NCBI GenBank assembly: GCA_030324005.1
Contig: JARDVH010000025.1
Location: 72,955,791 to 73,019,790, forward strand
From: Negaprion brevirostris
Lineage: Eukaryota
Direction of reading: 5' to 3'
Length of the DNA stretch: 64,000 nucleotides
Position numbers: made by a program. Below are positions 28,301-34,300 of this stretch, in pieces (the first letter of the stretch is position 1; each line of letters begins with the position of its first letter).

Positions 28301-31300
28301 AGAAATGCAACATGCACCGAGTTCGGTGACCCGCCCTCAGAATTTACTCTTATGAGCTCTCGAGGTTTACGTTTAACTTTTAGATTTATTACCAGACTCG
28401 TCAATATTGCCATACCAAGCAGACTGATTCCCAACCGGGACAATCCCTGCCGCAGGCCTTCCCCCAGGTTGTCTGGAAGTTGCCTTCTCCATTCCTCCTG
28501 TCGGTTGTAATGCTCTTCATCCAGGGATAGCCTATCCATGTTCCGAGCTAGACTGGTCGCCAGATTGGTGATTGATGTCAGCGTACCTGTACAGAAATGC
28601 ACAAAACAGTGGGTCCACATGATGCTGTGTTCTATTATTTTAAACAAAGCGTTTTTGTTTTAGGACGCAAAAGAACACATTGCGCAGAGCAGGTGAGTTA
28701 CTTATCCTCTGTATCTTGATAAATACTTACCTCCTAATCAGCAAGAACTTAAGGTGGGGAGGGAGGGGAGTTCAAAGGAGATGTGAAGGCCAAGTTTTTT
28801 TGACACAGAGAATGGTAGGTGTTTGGAACATGCTGCCAGGGGTGGCAGTGGAGGCAGATATGATAGGGGCCTTTAAGGGGCTTTTGGATAAGCACATGAA
28901 TGTGCAAGGAATAGAGGGATATGGACCAAGGACAGGCAGAAGCAATTAGTTTAATTTGGCGTCATGTTTGGCATGACACTGTGGGCTGAAGGGCCTGTTC
29001 CTGTGCAATGTTCTGTCATAAAATCGGATTATCTGATTACTATCAGATTCTTTTTCCTGTGTACACCTTGGTTGTGCATTTCCTGTACCAGCGGCTACAC
29101 TTCAACAGCACCTCATTGGGATGTCCTGAGGTCAAGCAAGGTGCTATATAAATGCAAGTCCTTTGTTTAAAGCAAAGTAAAGTTTATTTATGAGTCACAA
29201 GTTGGCTTACATTAACACTGCAATGAAGTTACTGTGAAAATCCCTGATATTTCTGATGGATTATTACATGACAGTGGAGTGATATTGTGTGTCACACAGA
29301 CTGCTTAAGGATGTGGAATTTTTAAATATAGCGAGAAAAATAACATTTACCTTTGGAAATGTGTTTTACAAATGAAGTTGTTCCCCTGGAGACGCCACTG
29401 ACAAAGGCGCCTGGACCACGGGTCAGACCCTCGTATGGGAGTCTGAAGAAATCGGCAATCCCATTACCAATACTTCGCACCAGGTTAGCGGGACTTCCAA
29501 GAATTTCCAGGGAGCCAACGACCCAGCCTGCATGGAGCACAAACCAAAAATGTCAATGGCAATTCAAATGAGAAAGCAAATAAAATTTCCTGAGAAGTAA
29601 AAACTTGCATTCGATACAGCCTTTCAGAACATCCCAAAGCTCTTCCAATCCATTTGTCACCTAAGTAATGGAGAGTGAATGGCAGCCAATTTGCACACAA
29701 ACTCTCACAAACTGATAATGAGTAGATAATCTGCTTTGGTGATGTTGATTGAGCAGTAAACTTTGGCCAGGGCAAAATGGAGATCTGCCCTAGGCTTCAT
29801 CAAAATGCAGTCATGAGATATCGAACTGACAGCCCAGGGAGAAGAAAGGGCTTGGTTTAGCATTTAATCAATAAGGTGGCACCTTTGACAGTGCATCACT
29901 CCATCAATACTGTACTAGAGCCTACACTTCCATAGCTCGGGTGAGATTTGACCCCACAACAAAGGTGAAAGTGTTACCGACTGAACCATGGCTGTTATTA
30001 AATCTGTTGTTCAGCTCAACTTTAAAAATGGCCATTGGTGTTTTTGGTATCTTTATATGAGCCCCTTGGAGAACAGTCTAAAGCAATGAAAGGAGTAGTA
30101 GGTAGATTACAAAAAGAGAGGGCTAGAGAGGTAGGAACATAGGAGAAGTAGGCAAATTCATTCCTTCAAGCATGATCCGCCAATCAGATCATGGCTGATC
30201 TCTCCCTGGTCTCAGATCCACCTTCCCACCTGTTCCCCATACCCCTTTTCCTTATTAGAAATACATCTATCTCCTTTTTGAAACAATTCAACGATTTAGA
30301 CTCTACCGCGCTATGGGACAGAGAGTTCCACAAATTCACCACCCTCTGTGAGAAGTAGCTCTTCCTCTTCTCAGGTTTAAATCTACTGCCTCTGTGACCT
30401 CTTGTTCAAGACTGTCCCCAGGTGGGGCTTACAAAGGTAATTCTGGTGCTTACACGGTATTTATTGGCAGCAGCTTGGCTGCAGAACTGATAGACTGGGG
30501 AACAAATATTTAAAACATTGCAGGTGATAAAAACAGAGATGCGGAGGGCTTCCTTCTTTTCAGAAAGAATCTGGGGAATTCTTTTCCACAGAGGGCTGTA
30601 GAGGCTGGGTTGTTAAGTATGTTCAAGGCTGAGATAGACAGATTCTTAATCAGTAAGGGAATCAAGGGGTTAGGATGACAAGGCAGGAAAGTGGAGTTGA
30701 GAATTATCATATCAGATCAGTCATGGTCTCACTGAATGCCGGAGCTGACTCAATGGGCCAAATGGTCTACTTCTGCTCCTGAGTCTTATGGTCAAGTAAT
30801 TTGTCTTACACTCCCACCCACTATTCCCATATCCTTCGATTCCATCGGAATGACGAGCTTTTAACACTCTCCTTCAATATGAAGTCCCTAGCTAAGAATT
30901 ATAGCATTTGAGATAGTAACATGTATCACCATGTTTTTTGCAAGAGTCCTGAGAAGAAATTAAATATAATCAGAGTATGAGTGAACTAGGAATTCCAATC
31001 GTTCCACCACCCAGCAGTATCTGACTCGGGTCTAGTCCTGTCCTTTTGTTCAAGGATGCTGAGGTCAATTGTACAATCTCAGAGTCTAGTCTCCAGGGAT
31101 GAGGGTTAGCTGATTTATCAAGAAGCAGCATTTAATCTTCTTCTGGTACTTGTCTTTTCAGGAAGAGATCTTATCCATGGGAAAAAACTGACAATTCTGG
31201 ATAAGCTCCTGGTAGCTGGAAAACCCAGAGTTTAACTTTCACTGTGAAATGGGCAAAATCAGGGCAGGCCTTTTGGGGTGAATTTACAAAACACTTCAAC

Positions 31301-34300
31301 ATGTTGAAGGTAGAGGGTTGGAACTGTCTTCTGCGTAATACTAAGTCAAATATTAAGTTAAAAGTTGACATTGATAGATTTACATTAGCCAAAAGTATTA
31401 AGGGATGGGACCATGGCATAGGCAGGGTGTAAGAGGTTGGGTCACAGCTCAACCATGTTCTCGTCGGATTGGATTCAAGGGGTTAAATGGCCTAATCCTG
31501 TTCAAGAGGCTTACAAGAGGGGGCCACTGTGGTTTTGCCTGCCTTCATAGACCTTGCCCAAGCTGAATTTTTTGTATTCATTCATGGAACATGGGTGATG
31601 CTGGCTCCTCAGCATTTATTGCCCATCCCCAGTTGCCCTTGGAGGGCAGTTGAGAATCAACCACATTGGTAGCACAGTGGTTAGCACAGCTACCTCACAG
31701 CACCAGCGACCCGGGTTCAATTCCTGGCTTGGGTCACTGGCTGCGTGGAGTTTGCATGTTCTCCCCGTGTCTGCATGAGTTTCCTCTGGGTCTCTGGTTT
31801 CCTCCTACAGTCTGAAAGGCGTGCTGGTTAAGTGTATTGGCAATGTTAAATTCTCCCTCAGAGTACCTGAATAGGTGCCAGAGTGTGGCGACCAGGGGAT
31901 TTTCACAGTAACTTCATTGCACTGTTAATTTAAGCCTACTTGTGATTAATAAAGTTTTTTTTAAACTTGTTGTGACTCTGGAATCACAAGTAGGCCAACA
32001 AGTAAGCTGATTTCCTTCCCCAAAGGGCATTAGTGAACCAGATGGGTATTTCTGACAATCGATAATAGTTTTGTGGTCATCAGTAGGTTCTTAAATCCAG
32101 ATTTTTTTTTACTGAATTCAAATTCCACCATGTGCCATCTAACCCAGGTCCCCAGAACATTAGCTGAGTTCCTGGCTTAATAATGTAACAATAATGCCAT
32201 TCAGCCATCGCCTCTCCAGTGCTGACCATGAATGGGAATATCAACATTTTAATGGCTGCACTAACCTGCTCGAAATAATGCTCCTGCGGCGTAGTGCATG
32301 GCAAGTGCATGGATGAGCTGCCTGGGAGTGGTGTAGATGGGCCCTCGTTCAAAGAGAGAGAAGGAGAGGGGAGCGTGATCTGATGCAATGTATAACTTTA
32401 TTGAAGCGTGGACGCTGACTAGTAAACTGATGGCGTGGATGGTCAATCGTTGCAGTCTGATTGGATTAACGAGCGCTTGGGTTGCATTGACCACTTGCTC
32501 AGGCACAAAGAGGTCAGTCGCTGAAGACACTCGCACTTGTTTCCGGTACAGTCCGGCGTCCGGGATGTATGTGTTAAACAGAGTCTTGAGGTAATATACA
32601 AATGTGTCTTCCACGTAAAGTCTTGCAGGCTTCAATTCAAAGTCCAGCTCATTCACGGTGAAGGCAAAGTTCTGCTCTTGAAGGAGGGCGCAGGCCGTTA
32701 GAAAACATTTGCGTTTGTAGTCATCAATATCTCTAGCCAAAAGTGTTGAACTGGAGCCACTTCTCCACTGTGGCCTTTCCGGTTTCAGCTCTTGGCAGAG
32801 CAGGGCAGGGAAGTGAAAGCTTGCTTTGTGGTACAGCTGGTTGTCAATCTGCAAGTCCCCGACGCAGACCTCGAGCATATAAAGTTCCGCAAATCCATCA
32901 GCGGGCTCTGGCCGGAATTCCCGCAGCAGAGGCCTGGACTGGTTCACCATTGGCGCGAGGTTCAACAGGACATTATCCAGTGTCAGCCTCAGCAGCTCTG
33001 AAGATTTGCAGTGATTGGTCACATCATCGTTGATCGTCAGGCTTGCTTGAGTAATTAGCACTCTCATTGCAATGGCCTGTTTCGGTGTCCTGTGCACAAA
33101 AATGAGAGGAAACCACACGTTAAAATTTGTCTGCGCTGCAGAAATGCAACAGGCAAGAAGCATTTTTAAGAGTCTCAAAAGACTAAGGATACGCAATTCG
33201 TCTGTCACTGTATGATTCGTAAAACATTTAAGAGAATCCTCCTGAGAACAAATGGGAAATGTTAAGTGCCGTTTTCTCAAACACTGTGCACGAAGCTCTT
33301 TGAACTGTTTCTCATGAGCCTGCTAATAAGGATCAGACCAGCTATTCATAAAGATTGTCATCTTTCTGGATTTTAACCATTTTTAGCCTGGCAGCCACAA
33401 ACTATTTTTAAAAAAAACCTTAAATGCCAAAAGCCCCCAAGCTGCTTTCGAGCAAAACCAGATGATTGTTGGGTGGCTGAGGAGCTCCGATGTCCCAGGG
33501 TCAGCAGCTGAATTTGGCTTGTGTTAATTTATCACTGGCTGAACAACAGGTTCAGGACGCCACGGTGGCATAGTGGTCAGGACTGCTGCCTCACAGCTAG
33601 GGACCCAGGTTCGATTCCTGGCTTGGGTCACTATCTGTGCGGAGTCTGCACATTCTCCCCATGTCTGTGTGGGGTTTCCTCTGGGTGCTCCGGTTTCCTC
33701 CCACAATGCGNNNNNNNNNNNNNNNNNNNNNNNNNNNNNNNNNNNNNNNNNNNNNNNNNNNNNNNNNNNNNNNNNNNNNNNNNNNNNNNNNNNNNNNNNN
33801 NNNNNNNNNNAGAATTTAGCATGGCCAATGCACCTAACCAGCATGTCTTTCGGACTGTGGGAGGAAACCGGAGCACCCGGAGGAAACGCACGCAGACACG
33901 GGGAGCACCTGAAATTTAAGTTTCAAAAGCACCTTCCACCAATGTGATCTCAAAAATTCTGATAATAAGCACAATGCAGTTGGTTGGGAAAGTTCTGTGA
34001 TTGGAGGTCCCTCCTTCCTGTCTCATTGTCAGCTGATAGTGAGCTTCCGCAGTGAGATTTTTCCCCTGCCCCGTACCTCCCAGTGCACACAGCAACACCT
34101 TAAATTGTAATCAGAATCGTAACGGAACTTGCACAAAGCCAGAGAGCAGAGGGGGTGCCCAATTCCTGTTCCGCTGCTGGGAATGGCACACCACAGTTAA
34201 TATTCCGCCTGTTCACTCTCCTTCTCTCTCCGCAGATGCTGCCTGACCTGCTAAGCATTTTCAGTAAATGTTATGTAGGAGCACCAACATCTGGAAATTG

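What the first reader, a model, noticed from the sequence alone, without database searches (positions are those of the whole stretch)
28416..33089. Intact three-exon VPS13B cassette nested, same strand, inside RAB10 intron 5
Seen: RAB10 intron 5 (24196-36147) holds three consecutive exons (824, 177, 171 bp) that splice in frame into about 390 stop-free codons of the VPS13B C-terminal region. All six splice sites are canonical and the introns (2738 and 764 bp) are retained, so this is not a processed retrocopy. The cassette shares a gap-free contig (19151-33710) with RAB10 exon 6 and its 3' UTR, so the left join is not a scaffold gap. Its introns carry the same shark-type SINE/CR1 families, arguing against distant contamination. 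By eye I found no upstream or downstream VPS13B exons (e.g. AIAGIVDQPMQ). Established: VPS13B is a roughly 4000-aa bridge-like lipid-transfer protein, unlinked to RAB10 in human (8q22 versus 2p23); this segment covers the end of the rod and the ATG2_C-like amphipathic helices. Inference: a DNA-level partial duplication into a Rab GTPase gene, either recent or maintained by selection; a chimeric contig remains the main alternative.
Basis: partly seen in the sequence, partly recalled or inferred. Interest (0 to 1): 0.85.

Follow-up and report, generated by a model that had tools for sequence, protein, structure and literature searches.

The report
VPS13B exons inside RAB10: probable misassembly
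Three genuine, intact VPS13B exons do sit inside the last intron of RAB10 in this draft assembly, but the placement rests on one junction buried in repeats and one run of N, so it is most likely an assembly error and not a new gene arrangement.

Summary
On the minus strand, three exons (33089-32266, 29527-29351, 28586-28416; 824, 177 and 171 bp) have six canonical AG/GT sites and open frames. They match consecutive parts of named VPS13B proteins (E 9e-94, 1e-32, 2.5e-31 to turtle). They lie between RAB10 exon 5 (ends 36148) and exon 6 (starts 24195), and 19151-33710 has no N. No other VPS13B exon is in the 64 kb.

Only the left join lies within a contig, and it falls in a 330-bp stack of interspersed repeats (27419-27752). 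The block then runs into a SINE and stops at the N run 33711-33810. No target-site duplication, terminal inverted repeat or poly-A marks a real insertion. Exon A shows no faster change than its closest relative, so it is either the working VPS13B exon or a very young copy. The cassette cannot be read in frame with RAB10 on either side.

My estimates are a repeat-mediated chimeric contig at about 0.65 and a real, recent partial duplication at about 0.25. Reads or another assembly would decide; none could be reached here. Interest is low.

The parts
32266..33089 (-). VPS13B exon A (824 bp; 274 whole codons, with one base of a split codon at each end)
   Evidence: AG at 33091-33090 and GT at 32265-32264. 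57% identity over 274 aa to turtle VPS13B residues 924-1197, E 5e-106. 76% identity to the unnamed protein P0307. It lies in the longest open frame of the window, 353 codons.
29528..32265 (-). Cassette intron A/B (2738 bp), holding interspersed repeats
   Evidence: Repeat copies at 30141-30276, 30536-30795 and 31667-31953 match other parts of the window at 69-91%.
29351..29527 (-). VPS13B exon B (177 bp)
   Evidence: AG at 29529-29528 and GT at 29350-29349. 94% identity to turtle VPS13B residues 1194-1257, E 1e-32.
28587..29350 (-). Cassette intron B/C (764 bp)
   Evidence: Boundaries read. Repeat pieces at 28791-29006 and 29179-29244.
28416..28586 (-). VPS13B exon C (171 bp)
   Evidence: AG at 28588-28587 and GT at 28415-28414. 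90% identity to turtle VPS13B residues 1247-1314, E 2.5e-31.
27753..28415 (-). Single-copy sequence downstream of exon C, taken to be VPS13B intron
   Evidence: No match elsewhere in the window. GC 0.415.
27419..27752 (.). Left junction zone: a stack of interspersed repeats where RAB10-intron sequence meets the VPS13B block
   Evidence: 27419-27499 matches 25833-25908 and 38534-38583. 27611-27749 is a SINE/LINE tail that matches 47880-47970, 35064-35162 (87%) and 6291-6364.
33090..33710 (-). Sequence upstream of exon A, ending in the head of a SINE (33551-33710) at the contig end
   Evidence: 33551-33707 matches SINE copies at 6450-6595, 31668-31809 and 34831-34978 at 81-84%. The N run starts at 33711.
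33711..33810 (.). Run of 100 N: the right-hand link between the VPS13B block and the contig that carries RAB10 exons 5, 4 and 3
   Evidence: Inverted SINE pieces lie on both sides (pair I5). It was not filled or looked up.
33811..35162 (.). Repeat-rich stretch of unknown origin (RAB10 intron or VPS13B locus), ending in a full SINE at 34829-35162
   Evidence: 33811-33914 and 34829-35162 match SINE copies. 34829-35140 matches 6291-6607 at 80%.
24112..24195 (-).
   Evidence: AG at 24197-24196; the translation starts TPVKEP and ends KKCCS followed by a stop.
36148..36240 (-). RAB10 exon 5 (the 3' end at 36148 is exact; the 5' end is approximate)
   Evidence: The frame [34 protein letters not shown] is followed by gtaact.

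Best explanation
The three exons are genuine VPS13B exons of this cartilaginous-fish-like genome. Their place inside RAB10 intron 5 is most likely an assembly artefact.

In this reading, the contig 19151-33710 is a chimera. One part is about 8.3 kb of true RAB10 locus (3' UTR, exon 6 and the first 3.2 kb of intron 5). The other is about 6 kb of the true VPS13B locus. The two were joined through a high-copy SINE/LINE tail at about 27.4-27.75 kb. The foreign piece runs to the contig end, which lies in another SINE. The scaffolder then set the contig beside the RAB10 exon 5 contig because of its RAB10 half, which leaves the VPS13B piece looking 'nested'.

Shown: the exons, their identity, the repeat content of the junction, the N run, the frame mismatch and the lack of insertion hallmarks. 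Inferred: that the join is false.
For: 1. Only one junction lies within a contig, and it is made of repeats: 27419-27499 and 27611-27752 both match other copies in the window.

2. The VPS13B block (unique sequence 27753-33550) starts right after a SINE tail and ends at a SINE head. That head runs into the contig end at 33710. This is the shape of a unit between repeats in a short-read assembly. The window has 12 N runs and contigs of 1-15 kb.

3. No target-site duplication, terminal inverted repeat or poly-A bounds the block.

4. Exon A has changed no faster than its nearest relative P0307. Changes unique to each are about equal against 8 of 9 named outgroups, and against the ninth P0307 is the faster. 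The end branch is 0.14 for the window and 0.22 for P0307. All 390 codons are open. So it behaves as the working VPS13B exon.

5. Three strong sense-strand exons in RAB10's last intron would be read out of frame, with a stop at the 22nd codon. That would cut off the exon 6 prenylation motif. I infer this would be harmful in a conserved gene.

6. Non-repeat, non-exon GC is 0.413 in the block, against 0.354 and 0.335 in the adjoining RAB10 intron.
Against: No reads, no second assembly and no view of the true VPS13B locus were available, so the false join is not shown.

The junction lies inside a contig, which the assembler did support in some way.

The GC step is weak. Other 6-kb windows of the same 64 kb reach 0.437, and 1-19050 has 0.412. 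Only repeats that recur inside the window were masked.

Repeats are frequent here, so a junction in repeats and a nearby N run would often be seen around a real insertion too. Real segmental duplications also tend to break in SINEs (recalled, not tested).

The N run at 33711-33810 may be masking and not a gap. In that case the right join might also be within a contig.
Confidence: 0.65

Rival explanations
1. A real, recent DNA-level partial duplication. About 5.8-7.7 kb of the VPS13B locus, with three exons and their introns, was copied into RAB10 intron 5 in sense orientation. The route could be double-strand-break repair or template switching at SINEs. It would be a young unprocessed pseudogene fragment. 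At most it would supply poison exons to RAB10 transcripts.
For: The left junction is inside a gap-free contig. The block carries the same repeat families as the rest of the window. The open frame and intact splice sites fit a very young copy. The block lies between direct copies of a SINE tail, 27652-27749 and 35064-35162 at 87%, which could mark repeat-guided repair.
Against: The second junction is not sequenced, because of the N run at 33711-33810. There is no insertion hallmark. Sense-strand exons with good splice sites would disturb RAB10's last splice and break the frame. Nothing here shows a second copy of the exons. A very young dispersed copy would be hard for a short-read assembler to keep apart from its parent (inference).
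Confidence: 0.25
2. An old insertion kept by selection: the cassette serves as alternative coding exons of RAB10, or as a small VPS13B-tail gene of its own.
For: 390 open codons and six canonical splice sites. Exons B and C are 94% and 90% identical to turtle.
Against: Out of frame with RAB10 at both ends. Exon A begins in mid-codon, and no upstream VPS13B or other coding exon was found. Exon A has changed no faster than the copy in P0307 and groups with it as an ordinary orthologue. The near-length search (150-480 aa) returned no hit flagged as encoded by the window itself.
Confidence: 0.03
3. Contamination: the VPS13B piece comes from another organism's DNA in the sequencing library.
For: None specific, apart from the local GC step.
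Against: The block's introns hold the same repeat families as the RAB10 locus, at 69-91% identity. Exon A is 54-58% identical to five named tetrapods and 50-55% to four named teleosts, so it is neither human nor teleost. Only a closely related cartilaginous fish could be the source.
Confidence: 0.03

Closest known systems
Repeat-mediated chimeric contigs (misjoins) in short-read draft assemblies
   Same: The join lies in high-copy SINE/LINE sequence. The foreign piece runs to a contig end inside another repeat. The other link is an N run.
   Different: The false join is not demonstrated, because no read or depth data could be consulted.
Unprocessed (duplicated) partial pseudogenes from segmental duplication, lodged in introns of other genes
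   Same: Introns are retained and consecutive exons are collinear with the parent gene. The position is intronic, and only a fragment of the gene is present.
   Different: Such copies usually show stops, frameshifts or faster change. Here 390 codons are open and the rate is normal. No parent copy could be shown.
Processed retrocopies
   Same: A gene fragment sits away from its home locus.
   Different: Both introns are present and there is no poly-A tail. This kind is rejected.
Gene-fragment capture by transposons (Pack-MULE or Helitron type) or LINE 3' transduction
   Same: A piece of genomic DNA with exons and introns lies at a new site, next to mobile elements.
   Different: No terminal inverted repeats, target-site duplication or poly-A around the block. 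The SINE pieces at its edges are ordinary dispersed copies.

Membership tests
VPS13B gene (exons of the C-terminal region) | Significant, collinear similarity to named VPS13B proteins | tested here: met
   Three hits in consecutive order to 5 of 5 named or partly named VPS13B fragments. Exon A gives E 5e-106 to Chelonia mydas VPS13B. 39 longer and 97 near-length relatives were found, and the named ones are VPS13B.
VPS13B gene (exons of the C-terminal region) | Exon ends coincide with the ends of homology and carry AG/GT | tested here: met
   Six of six sites are canonical. P0307, predicted from a 1028-bp contig, ends a few residues after the same ALFRAG end of exon A.
VPS13B gene (exons of the C-terminal region) | The rest of the gene (neighbouring exons) is present at the locus | tested here: not met
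   No other exon in 64 kb.
VPS13B gene (exons of the C-terminal region) | Pfam domain assignment of the segment (APT1 / ATG_C region) | tested here: inconclusive
   Pfam gives no family on the pieces at E up to 10. No model covers about 3389-3780 of full-length P0140.
Chimeric contig (assembly misjoin) | Junction inside repeated sequence | tested here: met
   27419-27499 and 27611-27752 match other copies in the window.
Chimeric contig (assembly misjoin) | The foreign piece reaches a contig end, and the second link is only a scaffold link | tested here: met
   The block ends in a SINE at 33710, followed by 100 N. Whether the N run is a gap or masking is unknown.
Chimeric contig (assembly misjoin) | No reads span the junction, and the true locus lacks the piece | not testable with these tools
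   No reads and no eukaryotic genome collection were on hand.
Unprocessed partial duplicate (segmental duplication) | A parent copy of the same exons elsewhere in the same genome | not testable with these tools
   Full-length (about 4000 aa) cartilaginous-fish VPS13B could not be reached. One search was limited to 481-2000 aa. One search listed the best 120 of 566 hits, and every named one is a tetrapod. There is no DNA collection of eukaryotes.
Unprocessed partial duplicate (segmental duplication) | Both insertion junctions sequenced | tested here: not met
   Left junction only. The right side is the N run 33711-33810.
Processed retrocopy | Introns absent, poly-A tail, target-site duplication | tested here: not met
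   Introns of 2738 and 764 bp are present. No poly-A or duplication.
Transposon-mediated gene capture / LINE transduction | Terminal inverted repeats or a target-site duplication bounding the block | tested here: not met
   None among 15 direct-repeat families and 19 inverted pairs in 27000-35600, apart from dispersed SINE copies.
RAB10-VPS13B fusion coding unit | Reading frame continuous from RAB10 exon 5 into exon A, and from exon C into RAB10 exon 6 | tested here: not met
   Stop at the 22nd codon and at the 7th codon. The phases are 0 against 2, and 1 against 0.

The most novel reading that the evidence does not exclude
A real and very young insertion of a 5.8-7.7 kb piece of the VPS13B locus into the last intron of RAB10, with three intact, splice-competent exons in sense orientation. 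It would offer RAB10 pre-mRNA three strong out-of-frame exons. Their inclusion would cut off the prenylation motif or trigger mRNA decay. That would be a natural case of a partial gene duplicate acting as a poison-exon cassette in an essential Rab gene.
Probability: 0.22. Interest if true: 0.45.

Novelty: not a real feature. Interest (0 to 1): 0.18.

Why it matters
If the join is false, the finding matters only as a quality flag. The contig 19151-33710 should be broken near 27.4-27.75 kb. The VPS13B gene model of this assembly probably lacks about 390 residues that lie stranded here. RAB10 intron 5 is also shorter, or different, from what is shown.

If the join is real, it is one more unprocessed partial gene duplicate inside an intron. 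That kind is known. It would have some interest because the exons are intact, lie on the sense strand, and would interfere with splicing of a conserved Rab gene.

Neither reading opens a long-standing question.

Tried and rejected
1. Pfam on the three exon pieces, at E 0.01 and at E 10. Nothing was found, because no Pfam model covers this part of VPS13B.

2. A search for cartilaginous-fish full-length VPS13B, to measure identity to the species' own gene.
- (longer proteins) covers only 481-2000 aa; its best hit is turtle at 57%.
- One search used the turtle fragment as a proxy. It listed the best 120 of 566 hits, and every named one is a tetrapod.
- (representatives) gave at best 58% over the full length of the exon, and up to 83% over short stretches.
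- (near length) gave one close relative, the unnamed P0307 at 76%, with the rest at 56% or less.
- I did not pad the query to shift the length filter.

3. GC content as a marker of foreign origin. A local step exists, but it lies within the spread of the same 64 kb. I reject it as strong evidence.

4. Target-site duplications, terminal inverted repeats and poly-A at the block edges: none found.

5. tRNA-like SINE heads with ARAGORN in 24000-37000: 0 found.

6. Literature. 'VPS13B' with 'RAB10' gave 14 papers, of which I saw 10 listings (titles and the starts of abstracts). None concerns a fusion or a shared locus. 'shark genome' with 'misassembl' gave 16 papers, 10 listings seen, and none bears on this locus. 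I opened no paper.

7. An old 2R-paralogue remnant of VPS13B near RAB10. I considered this from recalled human paralogy between 2p23-24 and 8q22. I rejected it because exon A is at orthologue-level distance: 54-58% to tetrapods, where named teleosts against tetrapods give 49-59%.

8. The joined 390-residue model was never built, searched or folded. All searches went exon by exon.
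Full report
**What is there**

The window is a fragmented draft sequence. 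It has 12 runs of N (eight of exactly 100, two of 10, one of 128 and one of 46), and the pieces between them are 1-15 kb.

Everything in the finding lies on the minus strand. RAB10 exons were located by short motifs and open frames:
- an exon with YRGAMG near 42445;
- one with GNKCD near 39328;
- exon 5 ([15 protein letters not shown]...ILRK) ending at 36148 before gtaact;
- the last coding exon (TPVKEP...KKCCS, then a stop) starting at 24195 behind a cag.

Three exons lie inside it:

| Exon | Coordinates | Length | Acceptor AG | Donor GT |
|---|---|---|---|---|
| A | 33089-32266 | 824 bp | 33091-33090 | 32265-32264 |
| B | 29527-29351 | 177 bp | 29529-29528 | 29350-29349 |
| C | 28586-28416 | 171 bp | 28588-28587 | 28415-28414 |

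The introns are 2738 and 764 bp. Translated exon by exon, the whole codons give 274, 58 and 56 residues without a stop. The two split codons, read off, are both glycine codons.

I did not build, search or fold the joined model. All work on the cassette went exon by exon.

**Identity**

Exon A aligns over its full 274 residues to residues 924-1197 of a Chelonia mydas VPS13B fragment, with 57% identity and E 5e-106.

A local tblastn used five VPS13B C-terminal fragments against the whole window. It gives the three exons in consecutive order and nothing else better than E 0.39. For turtle the matches are 920-1198, 1194-1257 and 1247-1314, at 57%, 94% and 90% identity.

I also cut the parts of the turtle protein that flank the cassette into 14 tiles. 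They found nothing outside the cassette better than E 0.078. All 7 of 7 control tiles from inside the cassette scored E 1.6e-15 or better.

So the window holds exactly these three VPS13B exons and no neighbour, on either strand.

Pfam has no model for this part of VPS13B.

**Whose exons**

In the near-length search the best relative of exon A is an unnamed 280-residue protein from a 1028-bp contig (P0307), at 76% identity and full coverage. All other hits are at 56% or less.

Against named proteins, exon A is 54-58% identical to five tetrapods, 50-55% to four teleosts, and 63% to a partial sturgeon sequence. P0307 shows nearly the same figures.

In a maximum-likelihood tree the window and P0307 pair with full support. 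The window's end branch is 0.14 and that of P0307 is 0.22.

Tajima-type counts of changes unique to each are about equal against 8 of 9 outgroups. Against the ninth (Pleurodeles, p = 0.02) it is P0307 that changed more.

Exon A thus behaves as an ordinary VPS13B orthologue from a lineage outside the bony vertebrates. It shows no sign of relaxed constraint. It is not human or mammalian sequence. The cassette introns carry repeats that recur elsewhere in the window at 69-91% identity, which argues against distant contamination.

**The joins**

The stretch 19151-33710 has no N. The left join, between RAB10 intron sequence and the VPS13B block, is therefore inside a contig.

It falls in 27419-27752, which is made of repeats:
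- 27419-27499 matches 25833-25908 and 38534-38583;
- 27611-27752 is the tail of a SINE/LINE family, with copies at 47880-47970, 6291-6364 and 35064-35162.

From 27753 to 33550 the sequence holds the three exons, single-copy intron sequence and dispersed repeats. At 33551 the head of a SINE begins, and it runs into the contig end at 33710. The 100 N follow, and the next contig opens inside an inverted SINE piece.

The next 1.3 kb (33811-35162) matches window repeats only at its two ends. The middle also looks like shark repeats to me, by recall. Nothing ties this stretch to either locus. Low-GC RAB10 intron resumes at 35163.

So the 'nesting' rests on one junction inside stacked repeats and on one N run. 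I could not tell whether that N run is an assembly gap or masking. I neither filled it nor looked it up.

No target-site duplication, terminal inverted repeat or poly-A bounds the block. The only flanking repeat is the dispersed SINE tail, 27652-27749 against 35064-35162 at 87%.

**Composition**

Non-repeat, non-exon GC is 0.413 in 27753-33710, against 0.354 (24196-27418) and 0.335 (35163-36147) in the adjoining RAB10 intron.

Other 6-kb windows of the same 64 kb reach 0.437, and 1-19050 has 0.412. Only repeats that recur within the window could be masked. The step is real but weak evidence.

**Reading frames**

RAB10 exon 5 ends on a whole codon, whereas exon A starts with the last base of a codon. 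Read on from RAB10, exon A gives 21 residues and then a stop.

Exon C ends one base into a codon. Read on from there, RAB10 exon 6 gives a stop at the 7th codon, counting the split one.

The cassette therefore cannot extend RAB10 or be extended by it. If it were really there, three sense-strand exons with good splice sites would compete with the last RAB10 splice. They would also remove the C-terminal cysteine motif encoded by exon 6. I infer that this would be costly in a highly conserved gene.

**Weighing**

Both main readings predict intact exons with a normal rate of change: the working exons misplaced, or a very young copy.

Several points fit a chimeric contig. The only sequenced junction lies in high-copy repeats. 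The VPS13B block is delimited by SINE edges and reaches a contig end. No insertion hallmark is present. The assembly is very fragmented. A real insertion would be expected to harm RAB10.

One point fits a real insertion: the left junction is inside a contig. Repeat-rich junctions and nearby gaps are also common here in any case.

My estimates:

| Reading | Estimate |
|---|---|
| Misjoin | about 0.65 |
| Real young partial duplication | about 0.25 |
| Old selected cassette | 0.03 |
| Contamination from a close relative | 0.03 |

The remainder is left for readings I have not thought of.

**What stayed unchecked**

I could not look for a second VPS13B locus, for the state of the VPS13B model in this assembly, or for RAB10 intron 5 in other sharks.
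- Full-length (about 4000 aa) cartilaginous-fish VPS13B proteins were out of reach of a 274-residue query. One search covered 481-2000 aa only. In the proxy search with the turtle fragment, only the best 120 of 566 hits were listed, and every named one is a tetrapod.
- The two literature searches gave 14 and 16 papers. I saw 10 listings of each and opened none. Nothing in those listings bears on a VPS13B-RAB10 arrangement.
- Supplementary files were not consulted.

Noticed in passing
window 24112-24195 (-): The RAB10 reading frame ends KKCCS and then a stop, so one residue follows the double cysteine. As I recall, human RAB10 ends in CC. I did not test whether this ending is typical of cartilaginous fishes or is a sequence error.
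   Followed up: no
window 1-19150: The 19 kb downstream of the RAB10 3' region is broken by 9 N runs into pieces of 1-3.5 kb. It holds open frames that look like LINE reverse-transcriptase fragments, at 2256-3042 (-) and in the ORF 9872-10423 (-) on its 10220-10423 side. The reverse-transcriptase label is by eye and was not tested with Pfam.
   Followed up: no
window 45519-64000: Four of seven RAB10 motifs, those of the N-terminal exons (P-loop, switch region), were not found anywhere in the six-frame translation. The first RAB10 exons therefore lie beyond the window, in an N run, or are split by introns within the motifs.
   Followed up: no
window 33674-33710 and 33851-33887: The two contig ends beside the N run 33711-33810 carry the same part of a SINE in inverted orientation, 92% complementary (pair I5). 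This is either two tail-to-tail SINE copies or a sign that two unrelated contig ends were set side by side.
   Followed up: partly
window 27652-27749 and 35064-35162: Direct copies of a SINE/LINE tail (87% identical, 7.4 kb apart) bracket the whole GC-richer block. The left copy is only a tail piece, while the right one is a full element (34829-35162). Whether this is chance or bears on how the block got there is open.
   Followed up: partly
window 32261-33322 (-): The open frame around exon A (353 codons) is the longest in the 64 kb. The next longest without N is 167 codons. In the near-length search, many unnamed proteins of about 265-295 residues from short contigs cover 97-100% of exon A. 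This large exon is therefore often predicted as a stand-alone protein in fragmentary assemblies.
   Followed up: no
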